Made by a program: the position numbers and the translations under genes. Below are positions 3,798 to 18,182 of a stretch of DNA of 64,000 bases, in pieces. Positions within the stretch are counted from its first letter, which is position 1. The number at the start of each line of letters is the position of its first letter. The stretch comes from a virus: IMG/VR virus record IMGVR_UViG_3300028578_000003, positions 32,001 to 96,000 of that record; one strand, given 5' to 3'. The notes below the pieces were generated by a model. That model was not told the origin of the DNA. It made no database searches and saw only the letters and a program-made list of their open reading frames with translations.

Positions 3798-3815
3798 GTC
3801 GCTTCCCTTCATTCG

Positions 3816-3883
3816 TCCGACACGACACGGCGGGCCGCCCGGACGCCCCGTGACGCCCGGACCTCCCACCGACCCGCACCGGG
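3816..3883 (-). repeat. conserved intergenic long hairpin, copy 1
   Basis: Minus strand CGGTGGG-AG-[inner stem-loop]-GG-CCCGCCG-TGTCGTGTCGGA, directly upstream of the DarB-like RBS. Confidence 0.75.
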
Positions 3884-3892
3884 CCGAGACTT

Positions 3893-3906
3893 GTTACCCC
3901 AACTAC
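3893..3906 (-). promoter_or_regulatory. 14-bp asymmetric operator-like motif GTAGTTGGGGTAAC
   Basis: Exact copies at 3893, 7751 and 10677; one-mismatch copy at 10780; all in the same orientation. Confidence 0.7.
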
Positions 3907-5190: not shown

Positions 5191-5218
5191 GCCTTACCCC
5201 TCTCGTTGGTCGTGCCCG

Positions 5219-5277
5219 TCTGGCACGACTCGGCGGGCGGCCCGACCCCCGTGTCGGGCTTCCCACCGGGCCGTATC
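5219..5277 (-). repeat. conserved intergenic long hairpin, copy 2
   Basis: CGGTGGG-AA-[GCCCGAC..GTCGGGC]-CG-CCCGCCG-AGTCGTGCCAGA; the inner stem differs in sequence but still pairs. Confidence 0.75.
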
Positions 5278-5623
5278 AGCCCACCGGCGCGCACTGGGCG
5301 AACAGCGCCCGGACCGTGCGCCGGCCCAGTGGCAGCACCCACTCGGTCGGCGTGGTGAAGTGGGCACCGGCGCAGGCCCGGCACAGCACGTCACCGGGCT
5401 GCCCGTCGCGCAGCCGCACCTGAGCCGCCCGGTCGCAGTACTCGCAGGCCAGCGCGAACCGCCAGTTACGCGGGTCCACCACAACCGCCGACCGCTCCCC
5501 GTCGAACCGGATCAGCAGGCCCGCCGGGCCGGACCACGCGACAGCCGTCGCGCACAGGCCGTCCGCGCCCCACAGCCTCGCGCCCGGATTGAGCGCCACC
5601 ATCGTTGCCATGGCCGCGCTCAC
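5276..5623 (-). CDS. hypothetical protein, Cys-pair (zinc-finger-like)
   Basis: GTGA overlap with the upstream stop; CEYC...CRAC. Confidence 0.6.
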   Translation of the reverse strand: MSAAMATMVALNPGARLWGADGLCATAVAWSGPAGLLIRFDGERSAVVVDPRNWRFALACEYCDRAAQVRLRDGQPGDVLCRACAGAHFTTPTEWVLPLGRRTVRALFAQCAPVG

Positions 5624-7651: not shown

Positions 7652-7679
7652 GCCGACTCCTCGTGTCGCTGCGTACCGC

Positions 7680-7744
7680 TCTGGCACGACACGGCGGGCC
7701 GCCCGGACGCGAGTGCGCCCGGACTTCCCACCGGTACCGCGTCA
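7680..7744 (-). repeat. conserved intergenic long hairpin, copy 3
   Basis: CGGTGGG-AA-[GTCCGGGCG..CGTCCGGGC]-GG-CCCGCCG-TGTCGTGCCAGA. Confidence 0.75.
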
Positions 7745-7750
7745 GGTCGT

Positions 7751-7764
7751 GTTACCCCAACTAC
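7751..7764 (-). promoter_or_regulatory. 14-bp operator-like motif
   Basis: Exact copy just after the stop of gene 7769-9172. Confidence 0.7.
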
Positions 7765-7768
7765 CGCG

Positions 7769-9172
7769 TCAGGCCGACTTGTGCATCCGGTTGCCCACAC
7801 CCGGCACGCTCCGGACCGCCGCCACGAGAGCCGAAGTCAGCAGGTCGCCATCGACGTCAGCGCCGCCCCACTCCACCACGGTCATGACCAACTGGTGGTT
7901 GACCTTGTCGCGACGCACCTCGATCTTGACACCGAACTTGTTGGTCACCGCCCGCAGGACCGCCTGACGCACCTTCGTGGCAACCTCGTTCCGCGACTTG
8001 CCCGACAGGCCAGCCTGAAGCCTGAACTGCCACCCATCCGTCGCGGACCGCTCCGCCTGGTCCTGCTCCACCACCGGCTGCGCCGCCTTGCGCGCCTTGC
8101 GGCCCGGCTTCTCGGCAGGCTCCGGCTCCACGTCCTGGACCGCCACGCCCAGCTTGCCCCGGCACAGCGCGCCGCCGAACGGCCGCTCGTGCATGTCCAG
8201 CCGACCGTCAATCACCGGCTGCTCCGTACGGCACGAGGGGCACTTCGCCATCTCCGGCGCCGGAGCGGCCGTAGCCGGCAACGCCAGCAGGCCCGACAGG
8301 TCCAGCTTCGCTGGGGCAGGCTCCGCCGCAGGCGCCACGGGCACACCGGCGCAGGTGTTGCACTTGACCATCGGCATACCAGCCGCGTCCCGACCGATAC
8401 GCCCGGTCTCCCGGTCCAGACCCACGGCGCCGCACCCGCCGCACGTCTCACGACCCACACCCAAACCCCAATACAGGGCGTTGTGCGCCGCGTCGAACGC
8501 CCGCTGCCACTCGCGGAGCTGCTGCGCCGTGCGCTTCACGGGCAGCGGCTCACCGTTGACCTCCGTGACGATGTCGGTCTCCACCCGGTACAGCGGCACC
8601 CCATCGACCTGCTCCGCCGCCAGACGGGTGAGCAGCGCGTTGATCCGGTCCATGTCCGGCGCGAACCCACCGGTCCGGGGCAGGTAGAACGCATCCTGCT
8701 TCGCCCGCCACCAGAACCAACCCTCGCCGCCCTTTTTCGCCGTTCCGACGATCAGGTGAGCCCGAGAGTGCTGCTCCACCCCGTGGATCACGGTCGGGTG
8801 CTCGCCATCGTGGACCAGCCGCAGCGTGACGGTCTCCACCTTCGGGGTCTCCACCTTCGGAGCCGGCACGGCCTTCTTCGCCACCGCCTTCTTCGGAGCA
8901 GCCTCCACCTTCGGCGCCGCCGGCGCGGGCGTCTCCTCGACAGGCTCCGCCGCCTCCTTCGCCGCGATCTCGTTCGACAGCCACTGCGCCACCTCGGCGA
9001 ACGTCGGTGTCGGCTGGCCCGCCGCACCCGGGAACCGGAAGTCCGGGTACTTCTGCGCGCCCCGCTTCGCCTTAGCGAGCGCGTTCTTCAGCTTGCCCTC
9101 GTTATTGTCCGTGAGGACCTGCTTCGCCAGCACCAAGCGAGGGTCATCCGTTTTCGTAGCCGTAGCCGCCAC
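7769..9172 (-). CDS. first gene of the leftward operon; multidomain hypothetical protein with Ala/Pro/Lys linker and Cys pairs
   Basis: GTG 9172 after GGAAGGTGAG; phage-like codon use; CGGC, CNTC and CPSC pairs. Confidence 0.75.
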   Translation of the reverse strand: MAATATKTDDPRLVLAKQVLTDNNEGKLKNALAKAKRGAQKYPDFRFPGAAGQPTPTFAEVAQWLSNEIAAKEAAEPVEETPAPAAPKVEAAPKKAVAKKAVPAPKVETPKVETVTLRLVHDGEHPTVIHGVEQHSRAHLIVGTAKKGGEGWFWWRAKQDAFYLPRTGGFAPDMDRINALLTRLAAEQVDGVPLYRVETDIVTEVNGEPLPVKRTAQQLREWQRAFDAAHNALYWGLGVGRETCGGCGAVGLDRETGRIGRDAAGMPMVKCNTCAGVPVAPAAEPAPAKLDLSGLLALPATAAPAPEMAKCPSCRTEQPVIDGRLDMHERPFGGALCRGKLGVAVQDVEPEPAEKPGRKARKAAQPVVEQDQAERSATDGWQFRLQAGLSGKSRNEVATKVRQAVLRAVTNKFGVKIEVRRDKVNHQLVMTVVEWGGADVDGDLLTSALVAAVRSVPGVGNRMHKSA

Positions 9173-9179
9173 TTTTCTC

Positions 9180-10641
9180 ACCTTCCGTGGTCGATCGGTC
9201 ATTAGCAGACCGCACCGTGCGCACTCCACTGCGCGCCCGGTCTGGAGAGCCAATGCGCCTTAGGTGCGCCGGCCGGTCGGTTACCCAACCGGCCGGCGCC
9301 CAAGAGATAGATGTCCCGTCACACTCGGAACACAGGTTCGCGTGTGTCCGGGGCGCTACACCCGGCTCACTACGCCACGCTAGGCAGGGACATACCTGAG
9401 AACACACCTCCGGCCCGGCGTCACTCGGGACGGTCGCCCTTACAGGCGTAGGTTCTGTGGCGATCATCGACCGACCCGCTCCCGCGAGTCCGCCTCGACA
9501 CGGGTGCCTTTGCACCCCCCGCTCCTAGGACGTGGTAAGCCCATCATCGGTAGTCGGTGGCTCCGGTCCGTGACCCTTACCGGCATCAGATGCCGGACCC
9601 TCGCACGGGACCATCCGAGCGCACTGTGCACGCTCCCGCCATGCCCCCCACCAGGCCCCGATACGGGCGGGTAGGGAACCGCTCTGGTGTTCAGAGCCCT
9701 AGCGCGCTAGGCGAGACGCACCCGCCTAGCAACATTTCCCCTGGCAATGTGTCAATGAGAGATACCACTCTTCCGCTCGCCTCACGGCGATCCGACAACC
9801 CTGCCTCACGGCGGGTACCTAAGCCACGCTAGTGGTCGCCCGAAGGCATGAAGGCGCGCGGTATCGGTCTCGCATAAGCGCCACCCTCCGCTGATCAGAT
9901 CAGCGGCTAGCTTGCATCCCGTGGTCTCTCGCGCCTAAAGCATGGTTGGCGTCGGCGCAGGCCATTCAATGGGGAATCACACTATTCACGTTTCAAGGAA
10001 CACCGGCCGGACACAGTCCGGGCAAGACTGCGCATACGCCCTTGCGTCGCGCTTTACGTCTCACGCACCGTCCCCGCAGAAAGCGCAGCCATCCCCTTGA
10101 CATCACACGGATGCCCGGATCGGAGGCACACTCGCCCGATTGGGTCTAGTGCCGGAGCTAGCAGCTGGTGATGTCAGCGCACGGGGAACCGCTGGCAGTC
10201 AGACTGCCCGCTATCCCTGGTGTGCACCCCGTCACCCCTATGGCTAGCGCGCCCGGTCAGACCGGGTGAGCGCCGCGCCATGCGGTCGGTTTGCTAGCCG
10301 TATTCGATTCACAAGTAACGGGTGCCCGGTCAGACCGGGCCGTGCCAACCCCGGTCAGACCGGGGGCCTAGCGTGTGCACCCGGTCAGACCGGGCCGTGC
10401 CTTACGTAAACAGCAAGGGGAGGAAAGCATCGGTCCTAGGGGTCGCCAGAAGGCTTCCCGTTCTTCAGCAATTACAGCGTGCCCCGGGTGTTACCGGAGG
10501 ATCTGCCTACCACTGCTTGTGCCGATTGCCGCGTACCCACCATGCCGCCTTGCGTGCAAGCGGCCCGACTGATAGCGATTCACGGATGGCCCATTTCAGA
10601 AACGGGATACCGTCCGCTTACTCGCCTGCCGTTCGCTTGCG
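9180..10641 (-). ncRNA. candidate ~1.4 kb structured non-coding RNA / 5' leader
   Basis: No credible ORF; lower GC; about a dozen CTAG; many hairpins whose GNRA loops and G-U pairs work only on the minus strand; downstream of two promoters. Confidence 0.6.
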
Positions 10642-10647
10642 AGTGCC

Positions 10648-10690
10648 ACTCTGCCGGTCCATTGGCCACTTGTCAAGTTACCCCAACTAC
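10648..10690 (-). promoter_or_regulatory. housekeeping-sigma promoter P2 with abutting operator
   Basis: GTAGTTGGGGTAAC-TTGACA-17 bp-CAGAGT. Confidence 0.7.
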
Positions 10691-10749: not shown

Positions 10750-10793
10750 AGCTTGCGCTCCGCCCAACCCCCTTGTCAAGTTACCCCGACTAC
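10750..10793 (-). promoter_or_regulatory. housekeeping-sigma promoter P1 with abutting operator
   Basis: GTAGTCGGGGTAAC-TTGACA-18 bp-CAAGCT. Confidence 0.65.
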
Positions 10794-10794
10794 A

Positions 10795-10810
10795 TGTGAC
10801 CCAGGTCACA
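10795..10810. promoter_or_regulatory. CRP/GlxR-type binding site
   Basis: TGTGA-CCCAGG-TCACA, a perfect TGTGA-N6-TCACA consensus. Confidence 0.6.
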
Positions 10811-11134
10811 ATCGCCCCCTTTTAATTGCTAAGAGGAATCGCGCGCAATGCGCACGCGCGGTTCCTTACTAAGCAAAGGGGGATCGATTCCTCTCGATGG
10901 ATCCAAGATCAACCCCCGGGGGTACCCCTCCCCCGTACCCCGGCGCGCGCGCCATCGGCGGGTTCGGGGCCTCGCGGTACGTACAGGTCCAAAACTCCTG
11001 AGCCTCCAAAGTTTCCGGGATGCGCGCGTCTGCGGCGTGTCTGCTGACCTGCGGATATAGGATCGCGACCGTGACCGCCGGGGTCGGGCGGCGGGAGGCC
11101 GCGCAGCCAAGATCACCCCCGGCCGCTGCCATGG

Positions 11135-11875
11135 ATGCTCCCCGTCACCACCTCTTCCCCGTACGCTCCCGGCATGCTCGATCCCCGCATACGCCAGCTC
11201 ACTTCCAAGGCAGACGCAGTCGCCGCCGCGCGTACGGTGACGACTCCGGACGAGATCGGACGGTTCGAGGAAATAGCGAGACAAACAGAGGCTGGTCGCG
11301 AATACCTAGCGTCGGGCGAATGGCTTTCCTATCGCGCGGTAATTGCCAGTCGTGGGGCCACCCCGACCAGCCGACCTAAGACACTCGCGGAGCTGGCTCG
11401 ATATCTGCAATACCGCGCCGACCAGGTCCCCGAAACCAGCGACCCGGCGGCGGCTCACCGCGACGCCTACCGGCTAGCCGCCTTCGAGGTCTCCGCGCTG
11501 GACATACAGCTCGCGAGCACGGTCACCTGGCCGGTCATGCACAGCGGCATGCGGTTCCCCGAGGCGCTACGCGCGGCCATGAGCGGTGCCCACATCGCCC
11601 GGGCTGGCTGGCCGGCGGGCTCGTACGTGTTGGTGCGGACCGGGTATCCGGCCGGGATCCCGATCAACGAGAACACCGCGGCGGCGACCGGGCTGCCTGT
11701 GGGGACGCCTGGGGTGTTCTTGCCGTACCTCGAGCGCTGCGACGCGAACGAGGCCGCCGCTGTCGCGCTCGGCGTGGCGGGAGAGTACGTGTTCCAGCCG
11801 TGGACGCCGGGCCAGGAGGACGTCTTCGGCGGCGACTGGCGGGCGATCAGTGGGAGGGCGGGGCTGCTGACCTAG
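11135..11875 (+). CDS. DUF2829 (Tad2-like) domain protein with N-terminal extension
   Basis: C-terminal MRFPEALRAAMSGAHIARAGW...FLPYL...PWTPGQEDVFGGDW matches the DUF2829 pattern; the start could be 11174. Confidence 0.75.
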   Translation: MLPVTTSSPYAPGMLDPRIRQLTSKADAVAAARTVTTPDEIGRFEEIARQTEAGREYLASGEWLSYRAVIASRGATPTSRPKTLAELARYLQYRADQVPETSDPAAAHRDAYRLAAFEVSALDIQLASTVTWPVMHSGMRFPEALRAAMSGAHIARAGWPAGSYVLVRTGYPAGIPINENTAAATGLPVGTPGVFLPYLERCDANEAAAVALGVAGEYVFQPWTPGQEDVFGGDWRAISGRAGLLT

Positions 11876-16413: not shown

Positions 16414-18182
16414 ATGCCTCGCAAGATGATCCTCGCCCCGCACCATGACCAGAACCTCAGTTTGGGATGGCTCGGCGTGTCCTGGATTGAGTTTTTTGTC
16501 CGGCACGGGCCCGGCGACGTCCAGGGCCAGCCGGTGCGGCACGGCGAGGAATACACAGAGTTTCTCGTCAACGCGTACGCGGTCGGTGAGCACGCCCGCA
16601 ACAACCACCTGCTGTACGACTCCGTGTTCTTGAGCCGCCCCAAGGGCCGGTGGGCCCCCACCGGGCAACTGGTGGGGGCCCACCGGCCTGACAAGGCTGC
16701 GACAAGAGCGGTCTCGCCGGCCGCATCTGCCTGTTCGAGGCGTTCGGCCCCTGCCGTTTCGCCGGATGGGCGCGCGGAGGCGAAACCTACCGTGACCCTT
16801 ACGGGTTCGGGTTTGAGTACACGTATGCCGAGGGTGAGCCGATGGGCCGGCCGGTCGTGGCCCCGTTCGTGCGGATCTGCGCGACCGAGGAGAACCAGAC
16901 GGGCAACACCTACCGGACCGTCTACTACAACCTGACGGACCGGGACTGCCCGCTGTATCACTGGCCCGGCCACGACGCCGGCAAGCGCGAGGTGTTCCTC
17001 GCCGACGGCGGCGAAATTCGCAGCAGCACAGCCAGTGCGGCCAGCAAAGATGGTGGCCTCGAAACGCATTCCACAATGGACGAAAGTCACCTCTATACGA
17101 CCGCTGAGTTGCGGGAGATGAAAGACGTCGTCGCCGCGAACATGTGGAAACGCAAGCGTGGCGCCGGCACCTGGTATTTGGAAACGACGACCATGTATGA
17201 GCCCGGCGAGGAGTCCGCCGCCGAGGCCACGTACAACGAGGCCGCCGCTCTCGCCGAAGGCCGTAAGCGGCGGGGCTCCCACCGCCTATATTTTGACCAC
17301 AGGTGGGGAGAGGTACCCGACCTGCACGACGAGCCGGTGCTGCGCCAAGGCCTACGGGACGCGTACGGCGACGCGATGGCCTGGATGGACGAGGACTCGC
17401 TCGTCGACCAGGTCTACGACACCCGGACCAGCGAGAACCGGGTGCGGCGATTCATGCTGAACGCGCAGACCAGCGCGAAAGACGCGTGGATCAAGTACGA
17501 GCAGTGGATCGCCTGCAAGGACTCCACGAAGGAGCTCCGGCCCGGCGACATGGTGTGCCTGGGCTTCGACGGCTCGGTGGGTGGCCCGGACGCGGACGCG
17601 ACCGCGCTGGTGGCGTGCCGGGTCTCGGACGGGCACATCGAGCTGATCGGCTGCTGGGAGAAGCCCGACGGGGTCGAGGGTGAGGACTGGCGGGTTCCGC
17701 GCGAGGAGGTCGCCGCCGCGGTCTACCAGGCCCGCGCCGACTACCGCGTGGTCGGCATGTACGCCGATCCGCCGCACTGGGACGACTACCTCGACGTGTG
17801 GCACCGGGAGTTTGGGCACGAGATGCTCGTGCAGGCCACCCAGAAGAGGCCCCTGGAGTGGTGGACGGCCAGGCCGACGCAGATGGTGTCGGCGTTGCTG
17901 CGGTTCCACACCGCGGTGCTCGAACGGCGGGTCACCTACACGCCGGCGGAGGACCGGGTCGGGCGTAAGGCGGAGCTCACGCTGACGCTGCAACGCCACG
18001 CCCTTAATGCCAGGGAAGATCGACGCCGGTCGGGGTTGCACATCCGGAAGGAATATCCGAAATCACCCAGGAAGATCGATGGGGTGATGGCTGCCGTGCT
18101 CAGCTACGAGTGCCGGCAGGACGCGATCGCCGCCGGCGTCGACGCGGCGAGCGACTGGTTCATGCCGAAGCGGATCCGATGA
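16414..18182 (+). CDS. terL: terminase large subunit, interrupted by a 50-nt insertion (16648-16697)
   Basis: The first frame gives SLGW...HGPGDVQG...SRPKG. A shifted frame from 16698 gives CDKSGLAGRICLFEAFGPCRF...ATEENQT, DESH, LGFDGS, D.TAL, KIDG. Removing the 50 nt yields one ORF. Confidence 0.9.
16645..16688 (+). other. 20-bp stem / GCAA tetraloop hairpin inside terL
   Basis: GGCCGGTGGGCCCCCACCGG-GCAA-CTGGTGGGGGCCCACCGGCC with one G-U pair. Confidence 0.9.

What the first reader, a model, noticed from the sequence alone, without database searches (positions are those of the whole stretch)
9580..10394. Seven palindromes with different stems but an identical TCAGA/UCUGA apex
Seen: CCGGCA-TCAGA-TGCCGG (9580), CCGCTGA-TCAGA-TCAGCGG (9888), GGCAG-TCAGA-CTGCC (10194), and CCCGG-TCAGA-CCGGG four times (10252, 10325, 10350, 10380). 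Four unrelated stems preserving the same apex amounts to within-genome covariation, which argues for hairpin recognition rather than a dsDNA site. Inference: multivalent protein-binding hairpins, either boxB-like antitermination sites or a protein-sponge RNA in the manner of CsrB/RsmZ; ssDNA hairpins are also possible.
Basis: partly seen in the sequence, partly recalled or inferred. Interest (0 to 1): 0.8.

Follow-up and report, generated by a model that had tools for sequence, protein, structure and literature searches.

The report
Phage antitermination leader with UCUGA hairpins
The seven palindromes are real and belong to a previously undescribed 1.45-kb folded RNA leader at the head of a soil phage's early operon; the leader combines eight identically capped hairpins with a copy of the host's ribosomal-RNA anti-termination signal, which resembles the phage lambda "nut" arrangement and has not been reported for phages of Actinobacteria.

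Summary
All seven stem-TCAGA-stem palindromes sit at the stated coordinates. No other TCAGA in the 163-kb phage genome has a stem longer than 3 bp.

The functional strand is most likely the opposite one, so the loops read UCUGA. An eighth hairpin with a G·U pair then appears.

The hairpins lie in a ~1.45-kb gene-free leader (window ~9188-10641, minus strand). It runs from a TTGACA-N17 promoter to the first gene of a ~40-kb leftward gene block.

Twelve uncultured relatives keep this leader although the flanking protein is only 37-77% identical. Together they carry 82 UCUGA-capped hairpins on 26 different stem tops. The consensus fold has 309 pairs, and 137 of them show compensatory changes.

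The leader also carries the actinobacterial rrn boxA-boxC element. The same motif lies ~155-165 nt upstream of 16S rRNA in Actinomycetota genomes. The most conserved UCUGA hairpin sits 1-5 nt upstream of a second boxA-like copy.

Best reading: a nut-like leader for processive antitermination, with the UCUGA hairpins as phage-specific, boxB-like protein-binding modules. No binding partner has been identified, and there are no expression data. Rfam has no match.

Other first-stage notes on this same genome reached similar readings (UCUGA leader, boxA-like motifs). The scan holds no look-alike on other DNA.

The parts
10648..10676 (-). Proximal early promoter. The -35 is TTGACA (10676->10671), followed by a 17-nt spacer and the -10 CAGAGT (10653->10648). 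Relatives have TTGACA-N16/17-TAATGT. The inferred transcription start is near 10641.
   Evidence: Conserved in the alignment of relatives and read from the sequence. The promoter is inferred; no transcript data exist.
10769..10811 (-). Distal repeat of GTAGTYGGGGTAAC-TTGACA (TTGACA at 10779->10774) plus the palindrome TGTGACCCAGGTCACA (10795-10810). This is a probable operator or second promoter region.
   Evidence: Direct repeat D3; conserved in relatives.
10832..10867 (.). GC-rich hairpin flanked by A/T runs (AGGAAUCGCGCGC...GCGCGCGGUUCCU). It looks like a bidirectional terminator and separates the leftward unit from the Tad2-like gene side.
   Evidence: In relatives it reads AAAAGGAAUCGCGCGC...GCGCGCGAUUCCUUUUAA.
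9188..10641 (-). Structured non-coding leader RNA of about 1.45 kb. It has 64% GC against 70% for the genome and has G>C on the sense strand.
   Evidence: Conserved in 13 loci. The RNAalifold consensus has 309 pairs, 137 of them with double changes. The strand test favours the minus strand. There is no coding signal and no Rfam match.
10590..10606 (-). UCUGA hairpin H1 (CCCGUU-UCUGA-AAUGGG, one G·U pair). It is the eighth hairpin and is seen only on the minus strand.
   Evidence: The orthologous position is occupied in 9 of 13 loci.
10379..10395 (-). UCUGA hairpin H2 (GCCCGG-UCUGA-CCGGGU).
10349..10365 (-). UCUGA hairpin H3 (CCCCGG-UCUGA-CCGGGG).
   Evidence: The orthologous position is occupied in 11 of 13 loci.
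10324..10340 (-). UCUGA hairpin H4 (GCCCGG-UCUGA-CCGGGC). It is the most conserved position and directly abuts boxA-like copy 1.
   Evidence: 12 of 13 loci have UCUGA here and the thirteenth has UUUGA.
10307..10321 (-). boxA-like copy 1. It is degenerate in this window (CGUUACUUGUGAAUC); relatives read UGUUCAUUGAGAACU.
10252..10266 (-). UCUGA hairpin H5 (CCCGG-UCUGA-CCGGG). In relatives the stem extends to 9-14 bp with many G·U pairs.
10194..10208 (-). UCUGA hairpin H6 (GGCAG-UCUGA-CUGCC).
   Evidence: The stem pairs show GC, CG and AU alternatives.
9979..10002 (-). rrn-type boxA + boxC element: UGUUCCUUGAAACGUGAAUAGUGUG.
   Evidence: It is the only such composite in the genome.
9888..9906 (-). 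UCUGA hairpin H7 (CCGCUGA-UCUGA-UCAGCGG). It is lineage-specific, found only in the window and L006.
9580..9596 (-). UCUGA hairpin H8 (CCGGCA-UCUGA-UGCCGG).
   Evidence: The orthologous position is occupied in 6 of 13 loci, each with a different stem.
9266..9299 (-). 15-bp GC hairpin with loop GUAA here. The same position is capped by UCUGA, UUUGA or UGUGA in relatives. No U-tract follows it.
   Evidence: z-score -6.5.
7769..9187 (-). Ribosome-binding site CGGAAGG (9187->9181), GTG start at 9172, and the first ORF of 467 aa. The protein has a TPR-like N-terminus, two zinc ribbons and a ferredoxin-like C-terminal domain, and belongs to no known family.

Best explanation
The palindromes are RNA hairpins capped by UCUGA, possibly a U-A-closed CUG triloop. 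They are displayed on a ~1.45-kb highly structured 5' leader.

The leader is transcribed leftward from a host sigma-A-type promoter, at the head of the phage's ~40-kb co-directional early gene block. It works like a lambda nut or rrn leader:
1. Its boxA-boxC element, copied from the actinobacterial rRNA-operon leader, recruits host NusB/S10 and NusA to the elongating RNA polymerase.
2. The phage-specific UCUGA hairpins, one of which directly abuts a boxA-like copy, act as boxB-like, multivalent docking sites for a loop-specific protein.
3. That protein is most plausibly phage-encoded. The 467-aa zinc-ribbon product of the first ORF is the positional candidate, in the way that N follows nutL in lambda.
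4. The result would be transcription that resists termination across the long operon.

Shown: the hairpins, their conservation and covariation, the strand bias, the conserved leader fold, and the sequence identity of the boxA-boxC block with host rrn leaders.

Inferred: transcription from the predicted promoter, Nus-factor recruitment, protein binding to the loops, and antitermination itself.
For: 1. Specificity. Only these hairpins exist in the 163-kb genome. In 13 leaders, UCUGA occurs 97 times against 13.5 expected, and 82 copies cap stems of 4 bp or more. The complement UCAGA is avoided (2 against 10.2 expected; 0 of 200 shuffles were as low).

2. Conservation with covariation. There are 26 different stem tops. 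The closing pair is A-U in 32 hairpins and G-C in 47. Orthologous stems switch between GC, CG, AU and UA.

3. Strand. The minus-strand consensus folds have lower energy (-187.6 against -128.2, and -123.7 against -90.4). Their G·U:A·C ratios are 175:21 and 147:24, against 58:45 and 52:27 on the plus strand. Stems lengthen to 9-16 bp once G·U pairs are allowed. The sense strand has G>C in all 13 leaders.

4. Leader fold. Of 309 consensus pairs, 87% are canonical, against 37-41% when the partners are slid. 137 pairs show double changes, against a maximum of 99 in shuffles. There is no coding signal.

5. Promoter. TTGACA-N16/17-TAATGT is conserved immediately 5' of the leader.

6. Nut context.
- The phage-derived pattern TTGAGAAYTNNATAGTGTG matched at least 120 genome contigs, and every one that was listed was Actinomycetota.
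- In 5 of 6 contigs checked, it lies 153-164 nt upstream of 16S rRNA on the same strand.
- Host consensus GUGUUGUUUGAGAACUCAAUAGUGUG compares with phage GUGUUCNUUGAGAAYUNCAUAGUGUG.
- The boxA consensus is UGCUCUUUAACA in E. coli and AUGAUCUUUGAAA in B. subtilis, and a small helix immediately precedes boxA in B. subtilis rrn operons (PMC13753749).
- boxC is the specific NusA site of the M. tuberculosis rrn operon, with AUA critical (PMC2724277).

7. Position. The most conserved hairpin lies 1-5 nt 5' of boxA-like copy 1 in all 13 leaders.

8. Operon. Genes from window 9172 down to genome position ~750 are almost all on the minus strand. They are punctuated by very stable GC hairpins.
Against: - There are no transcript data. 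No RNA run holds this sequence, so strand and promoter rest on comparative inference only.
- The loop is not GNRA-like as in lambda boxB, and no N-like arginine-rich protein or any RNA-binding family was found. The first ORF matches no family.
- Seven to nine hairpins and 1.45 kb of covarying structure are far more than any known nut site needs, so the leader probably does something more, or something else.
- Not every orthologous position keeps UCUGA in every relative.
- boxA-like copy 1 is degenerate in this window.
- Host Nus binding to the element has not been tested, and the host is unknown.
Confidence: 0.55

Rival explanations
1. The UCUGA loops are RNA-RNA contact modules, used as group I/II introns and RNase P use GNRA tetraloops. 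They would build the tertiary or multimeric architecture of a large ornate RNA. The quasi-palindromic loops could kiss each other (UC/GA), as in the GOLLD, ROOL and OLE assemblies. No dedicated loop-binding protein would be needed.
For: The element is 1.45 kb with long-range covarying helices. Within one genome the clustered hairpins share identical stems, and RNAalifold even pairs neighbouring hairpins with each other. Large phage-associated RNAs are known to form homo-oligomers (PMC12286853).
Against: No conserved receptor or complementary UCAGA exists in the RNA; that sequence is in fact avoided. The number and position of hairpins vary between relatives, which is unusual for fixed tertiary contacts. 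The RNA runs on into an mRNA with no evident 3' end. There is no Rfam similarity to any large RNA.
Confidence: 0.17
2. The hairpin array is a decoy or sponge that titrates a host factor recognising the U-CUG-A sequence. One candidate is an anticodon-loop nuclease or modification enzyme that acts on tRNA-Gln(CUG). The array would then be an anti-defence RNA sitting next to an anti-defence gene.
For: UCUGA equals positions 33-37 of a typical tRNA-Gln(CUG) anticodon loop (from general knowledge of the E. coli tRNA-Gln2 loop UUCUGAU, not tested here). The phage's only tRNA is a tRNA-Gln(CUG) with a deviant loop, CUCUGGA. A Tad2-like anti-Thoeris gene is the divergent neighbour. The array is multivalent and the loop complement is avoided.
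Against: The pair flanking the loop always covaries (A-U or G-C). The loop therefore has 5 nt or fewer rather than the 7 nt of an anticodon loop, and positions 1 and 5 can change together to C-G. No such nuclease is known for the unknown host. The boxA-boxC context is not explained by this reading.
Confidence: 0.1
3. The elements act at the DNA level. They could be extruded single-stranded hairpins, such as N4-type hairpin promoters (5-7 bp stem, 3-nt loop), priming sites or origin signals. Alternatively they could be duplex palindromic operators for a dimeric regulator.
For: The stems are 5-7 bp, and if U and A pair the loop has 3 nt. The hairpins sit at the divergent switch point, where cumulative GC skew reaches its minimum. 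In this window the palindromes are perfect at the DNA level.
Against: In relatives many stems need G·U (G·T) pairs on one strand only: 6 of 14 and 4 of 11 pairs in two of them. The whole 1.45 kb covaries as one fold with long-range helices. A duplex operator would not keep an asymmetric centre in one orientation in 82 of 82 cases while the half-sites change. No N4-like virion RNA polymerase was looked for or seen.
Confidence: 0.06
4. The hairpins are generic stability, processing or termination elements, such as RNase III or RNase E sites, Rho blockers or U-tract-less terminators, with no specific reader of the loop.
For: They are GC-rich stable stems in a long untranslated leader. Actinobacterial transcripts often carry hairpins without U-tracts.
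Against: A generic role does not explain an invariant 5-nt cap (97 observed against 13.5 expected), avoidance of its complement, or the conserved C-G pair at position -3/+3. No U-tract follows any of the hairpins.
Confidence: 0.05

Closest known systems
Phage lambda nutL/nutR with N protein (boxA + boxB)
   Same: It is a cis-acting leader RNA just downstream of an early promoter. It has a boxA related to the host rrn boxA, next to a small hairpin whose 5-nt loop is conserved while the stem varies. The first ORF follows directly, as in pL-nutL-N. It heads a long operon.
   Different: The loop is UCUGA, not a GNRA-like GAAAA or GAAGA. There are eight hairpins rather than one. The element is embedded in 1.45 kb of covarying structure. 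No N homologue or arginine-rich peptide was identified. A boxC (NusA site) is retained as in rrn leaders. The host is an actinobacterium.
Bacterial rrn operon antitermination leader (boxB-boxA-boxC, rrnTAC)
   Same: The boxA-boxC block is near-identical to actinobacterial rrn leaders (about 21-22 of 26 nt in relatives). The order is the same, with a hairpin followed by boxA.
   Different: It does not precede rRNA. No other part of the leader resembles the rrn operon. None of 103 host rrn leaders has a UCUGA-capped hairpin.
Large ornate phage-associated RNAs (GOLLD, ROOL) and OLE
   Same: It is a very large, heavily covarying non-coding RNA carried by phages, of unknown biochemical role, and it reuses one structural module repeatedly.
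   Different: There is no sequence or structure match in Rfam 15. It is about twice the size of ROOL or OLE. It is continuous with an mRNA and carries Nus-factor signals. It is found in high-GC actinophages.
CsrB/RsmZ protein-sponge RNAs
   Same: Many copies of one short loop motif sit on varied stems in one RNA.
   Different: The defining GGA/ANGGA loops are absent. CsrA/RsmA is not a typical actinobacterial protein (general knowledge). The RNA is a cis leader, not a free small RNA.
HK022 put and Bacillus EAR antiterminator RNAs; LoaP leader hairpins
   Same: These are leader RNAs that confer processive antitermination on long operons.
   Different: They are much smaller, lack boxA and lack a repeated capped hairpin. 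There is no sequence relation.

Membership tests
Lambda-type nut site | A boxA element related to the host rrn boxA lies in the early leader. | tested here: met
   Window 10002->9993 reads UGUUCCUUGA. The composite pattern hits at least 120 Actinomycetota contigs, and in 5 of 6 checked it lies 153-164 nt upstream of 16S.
Lambda-type nut site | A hairpin with a conserved loop lies adjacent to boxA. | tested here: met
   The hairpin at 10324-10340 lies 1-5 nt 5' of boxA-like copy 1 in 13 of 13 leaders. The order is hairpin then boxA, as in rrn leaders and not as in lambda.
Lambda-type nut site | The boxB loop is a GNRA-like pentaloop. | tested here: not met
   The loop is U-[C>U,A,G]-U-G-A, and positions 1 and 5 can covary to C-G.
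Lambda-type nut site | An N-like arginine-rich RNA-binding protein is encoded downstream. | tested here: inconclusive
   The first ORF (467 aa) has no Pfam or PHROG family and no decisive fold match. The smaller downstream ORFs were not examined.
Lambda-type nut site | Terminator read-through depends on the site and on Nus factors. | not testable with these tools
   This needs reporter or in-vitro transcription assays.
rrn antitermination leader | A boxA followed by boxC (the NusA site containing AUA) is present. | tested here: met
   The phage reads GUUCNUUGAGAAYUNCAUAGUGUG; the host reads GUUGUUUGAGAACUCAAUAGUGUG. The role of boxC is taken from PMC2724277.
rrn antitermination leader | It lies upstream of 16S rRNA. 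| tested here: not met
   The phage genome has no rRNA. The leader precedes a protein-coding operon.
CsrB/RsmZ-type sponge | Repeated GGA (ANGGA) motifs sit in hairpin loops. | tested here: not met
   All 82 loops are UCUGA and contain no GGA. At orthologous positions where UCUGA is absent, the variants are UNUGA or CCUGG.
GOLLD / ROOL / OLE and other Rfam large RNAs | It matches the family covariance model. | tested here: not met
   There were no hits at the gathering threshold in the window or in 12 relatives, and none of relevance at E<=10.
N4-type DNA hairpin promoter | A 5-7 bp stem with a 3-nt loop forms in template-strand DNA and is read by a virion RNA polymerase. | tested here: inconclusive
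   The stem length fits, and a 3-nt loop is possible. However, stems with many G·U pairs and a whole-region RNA fold argue against it. The presence of a virion RNA polymerase was not tested.
tRNA anticodon stem-loop mimic | A 7-nt loop has an unpaired 32/38 position around U33-NNN-R37. | tested here: not met
   The flanking positions are always complementary and covary (A-U in 32, G-C in 47 of 82), so the loop has 5 nt or fewer.

The most novel reading that the evidence does not exclude
The leader is a new class of giant (~1.45 kb) phage regulatory RNA or RNP. In it, an array of UCUGA-capped hairpins, a cap not known as a recurrent RNA motif, assembles a dedicated phage protein or the RNA itself into a multivalent scaffold. 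That scaffold rides on RNA polymerase together with hijacked host Nus factors. It could also double as a decoy for a host factor that reads the tRNA-Gln(CUG) anticodon loop. Either way the mechanism would go beyond any described nut, put or EAR system.
Probability: 0.2. Interest if true: 0.88.

Novelty: new variant of a known kind. Interest (0 to 1): 0.72.

Why it matters
Processive antitermination through nut sites is a textbook mechanism, but it is essentially known only from lambdoid phages of enterobacteria. Searches of the held literature found no boxA or nut system described for actinobacteriophages.

This family of 13 members, all from soil or rhizosphere metagenomes, shows large actinophages copying their hosts' rrn boxA-boxC signal and pairing it with a hairpin cap of their own.

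It gives four things:
1. A directly testable model for how a ~40-kb early operon is transcribed in high-GC hosts.
2. A new, strongly covarying 1.45-kb RNA family for structural study.
3. A defined RNA bait (stem-UCUGA-stem) for finding its reader protein.
4. A host-prediction handle, because the boxA-boxC variant tracks particular actinobacterial lineages.

Tried and rejected
- **Public phage collection.** DNA search with the region and protein search with the first ORF found no match. The portal protein is only about 33% identical to those of Gordonia phages.
- **IMG/VR.** Searches with the two flanking proteins and with the protein alignment found no relatives. The terminase found only short provirus fragments that lack the region.
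- **Representative genomes with the terminase.** Nothing was found.
- **Double-hairpin DNA pattern in IMG/VR.** The one hit (L001) is a Gly-rich coding tandem repeat at 56% GC and is a chance match.
- **Conserved leader-block pattern in IMG/VR.** The seven hits (L021-L027) have no UCUGA hairpins and no homologue of the ORF. Six are at 46-50% GC, so they are unrelated.
- **Rfam.** No family matched in the window or in relatives.
- **Sequencing runs.** No RNA holder is listed; only DNA runs of soil metagenomes hold the stretch.
- **The first ORF.** Structure searches gave only generic TPR-like and ferredoxin-like similarities. The ESM Atlas gave no usable hit.
- **Literature.** A search for 'UCUGA' hairpin loops found nothing relevant, and UCUGA is not mentioned in a survey of natural pentaloops. 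The primary papers on the M. tuberculosis NusA-boxC complex are not held, so the host sequence was taken from genomes instead.
- **CTAG enrichment in the region** (13 copies). It is only about twice the compositional expectation for non-coding DNA and was not pursued.
- **The element-wide CACSGTG promoter class.** It does not occur in this region.
- **Similarity of the rest of the leader to rrn operons.** None was found.
Full report
**Setting**

The window is bases 32001-96000 of a single 163,217-bp virus record with 70% GC. It encodes a large terminase, a portal and a 1788-aa tape-measure protein. Its portal is only about 33% identical to those of Gordonia and Mycobacterium phages. It is therefore an uncultured siphovirus-type actinophage, and its source is a soil metagenome.

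Codon-position GC analysis puts the finding in a gene-free stretch with 63-64% GC. To the left lies a gene block that is almost entirely on the minus strand and runs for about 40 kb. Its first gene is 7769-9172. To the right lies a plus-strand Tad2-like gene (11135-11875).

**The observation**

- CCGGTCAGACCGG occurs four times against 0.02 expected.
- TCAGA is depleted in the window overall (27 against 66 expected), yet nine plus-strand copies cluster in 9586-10600.
- Of the 59 TCAGA copies in the whole genome on both strands, only these seven have stems of 5-7 bp. No other copy exceeds 3 bp.

**Relatives**

The flanking 467-aa protein has homologues of 37-77% identity in metagenome assemblies. 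Twelve contigs carrying upstream DNA were fetched.

Where neighbouring genes are known, synteny is conserved. A Tad2-like gene, or another small gene, lies on one side of a 1.5-2.4-kb gene-free gap. The homologue, small ORFs and a ~1650-aa DUF8437 helicase lie on the other side.

Every gap holds capped hairpins of the same kind, always on the same strand relative to the genes, and with different stems such as CCCGA/UCGGG, CCCG/CGGG, CCUG/CAGG and CGUA/UACG.

**Which strand**

Four lines of evidence point to the minus strand of the window.
1. RNAalifold on the aligned gaps gives clearly better consensus energies for the minus strand: -187.6 against -128.2, and -123.7 against -90.4. It also finds more pairs. 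The G·U:A·C ratios are 175:21 and 147:24 on the minus strand, against 58:45 and 52:27 on the plus strand. This means many plus-strand 'mismatches' are G·U pairs on the minus strand.
2. Read on the minus strand with G·U pairs allowed, the hairpin stems lengthen to 9-16 bp in relatives. An eighth hairpin also appears in the window at 10590-10606.
3. The sense strand has G>C in all 13 sequences.
4. A canonical TTGACA-N16/17-TAATGT promoter, reading in this direction, is conserved just upstream. In the window the -10 is CAGAGT.

The loops therefore most likely read UCUGA.

**The hairpins as a class**

- In 17.1 kb of sense leader from 13 loci, UCUGA occurs 97 times against 13.5 expected. Its complement UCAGA occurs twice against 10.2 expected, and 0 of 200 shuffles were as low.
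- Eighty-two copies cap stems of 4 bp or more. They fall at about eight orthologous positions, plus some lineage-specific ones.
- There are 26 different four-pair stem tops. The pair next to the loop is A-U in 32 hairpins and G-C in 47. A C-G pair at the third position is kept in 87%.
- Loop variants at orthologous sites are UUUGA, UAUGA and UGUGA. In two lineages positions 1 and 5 change together to C-G (CCUGG, CCUAG). The cap may therefore be a U-A-closed N-U-G triloop.

Stem covariation with a fixed cap argues for recognition of a folded single strand. The residual stem preference shows that the stems are not 'unrelated'.

**The larger element**

The entire gap is conserved, not just the hairpins. 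Mean column identity is about 50%, while the neighbouring protein is about 40% identical.
- The sense alignment gives a consensus of 309 pairs that includes long-range helices, for example window 9705/9377.
- Of those pairs, 87% are canonical, against 37-41% when the 3' partners are slid by 1-3 columns.
- 137 pairs show changes on both sides, against a mean of 83.5 and a maximum of 99 in within-pair shuffles. A tool-made sub-alignment gives the same picture.
- There is no codon periodicity, gap lengths are not multiples of three, and only short stop-free runs occur.
- Rfam 15 has no match in the window or in the relatives.
- The structure continues to a conserved hairpin and the ribosome-binding site of the first ORF. 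No U-tract follows the large hairpin at 9266-9299.

The element is therefore best described as a ~1.45-kb structured leader rather than a separate small RNA.

**The functional clue**

A single-stranded block in the leader reads GUGUUCNUUGAGAAYUNCAUAGUGUG in relatives. In the window it reads UGUUCCUUGAAACGUGAAUAGUGUG (10002->9979).
Every one that was listed was Actinomycetota, including Arthrobacter, Nocardia, Mycobacterium, Mycolicibacterium, Gordonia, Corynebacterium and others.
- In five of six loci checked, the match lies 153-164 nt upstream of the 16S rRNA gene on the same strand.
- The host consensus is GUGUUGUUUGAGAACUCAAUAGUGUG.

This is the boxA-boxC region of the rrn leader.
- The boxA consensus is UGCUCUUUAACA in E. 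coli and AUGAUCUUUGAAA in B. subtilis. It loads NusB-S10, and in B. subtilis rrn operons a small hairpin immediately precedes it (PMC13753749).
- boxC is the specific NusA-binding site of the M. tuberculosis rrn leader, with AUA critical (PMC2724277).

Further points on this element:
- It occurs only once in the phage genome.
- Nothing else in the leader resembles rrn operons.
- None of 103 host rrn leaders has a UCUGA hairpin. The hairpins are thus a phage-specific addition.
- A second, weaker boxA-like copy (UGUUCAUUGAGAACU in relatives; window 10321->10307) lies 1-5 nt downstream of the most conserved UCUGA hairpin in all 13 leaders. This reproduces the order, hairpin then boxA, of rrn leaders.

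**Interpretation**

The arrangement is: early promoter, leader with boxA-boxC plus capped hairpins, first ORF, long co-directional operon punctuated by very stable GC hairpins. It parallels lambda pL-nutL-N and the rrn antitermination leader.

I therefore favour a nut-like processive-antitermination leader in which the UCUGA hairpins are boxB-like docking sites.

The reader protein is unknown. The first ORF is a positional candidate only. It has a TPR-like N-terminal domain, two CxxC zinc ribbons and a ferredoxin-like C-terminal domain, and it has no family or decisive fold match.

The size of the leader and the number of hairpins exceed anything needed for a simple nut site. Additional or alternative roles therefore stay open:
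- an RNA-RNA architecture, as in GOLLD and ROOL (PMC12286853);
- a decoy for a factor that reads the tRNA-Gln(CUG) anticodon loop. The phage's only tRNA is an unusual tRNA-Gln(CUG).

Readings at the DNA level are disfavoured by the one-strand G·U requirement and by the global covarying fold.

**Limits**

- There is no transcript evidence, and no RNA run is listed.
- The host is unidentified.
- All relatives were found through the neighbouring protein, so the RNA's independence from that gene is untested.
- The consensus structure is computational.
- RNAalifold sometimes pairs adjacent identical hairpins with each other, and the data cannot exclude this.

**Earlier notes**

Other first-stage notes on this same genome had independently proposed three things: a UCUGA-capped leader, a structured RNA heading the early operon, and two boxA-like motifs. 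All three were tested here and hold. The scan has no look-alike stretch in other genomes.

Noticed in passing
genome 159847-159920 (about 63.8 kb beyond the window's end): The phage's only tRNA is a tRNA-Gln(CUG) with the anticodon loop CUCUGGA (G at position 37). The leader hairpins display U-CUG-A. A link between the two, such as a decoy plus a resistant tRNA, is speculative.
   Followed up: partly
window 3800-3900, 5195-5290, 7670-7768 (minus strand): Very stable GC-rich intergenic hairpins (-50 to -56 kcal/mol, no U-tract) share the outer stem CGGUGGG/CCCGCCG and punctuate the early operon. They could be pause, processing or termination signals that an antitermination complex would have to pass.
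   Followed up: partly
window 10666-10690 and 10769-10793: The motif GTAGTYGGGGTAAC directly abuts the TTGACA -35 boxes in two co-oriented copies and is conserved in relatives. It is probably an asymmetric operator for a phage regulator. The palindrome TGTGACCCAGGTCACA (10795-10810) lies next to the distal copy.
   Followed up: partly
window 10930-11110: A second conserved non-coding block lies between the bidirectional terminator-like hairpin and the Tad2-like gene. It includes GCGGCGTGTCTGCTGACCTGCGGATATAGGAT and is nearly invariant in relatives. It is probably the control region of the rightward unit.
   Followed up: no
genome 60-130 kb (for example window 59984, 65745, 74632, 76354): An element-wide promoter-like motif, CACSGTG-N-TTGCATTT-N-GTAnnnT, occurs 11 times in front of genes. 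It does not occur in the early leader region.
   Followed up: partly
L003 982-2739 and L002 524-2281, compared with window 16842-18182: Relatives' terminase matches span about 1758 nt, against a 1341-nt ORF in the window.
   Followed up: no
L053 4994-5012 (Gordonia sp. B7-2 chromosome): A boxA-boxC-like match of the phage type (CCUUGAGAACUUCAUAGUGUG) had no 16S rRNA detected downstream in the 8-kb locus. It may be a non-rrn use of the signal, or a masked rRNA.
   Followed up: no
window 10397-10535 (minus-strand RNA between hairpins H1 and H2): The leader has a window-specific insertion of about 140 nt that is absent from all 12 relatives.
   Followed up: no
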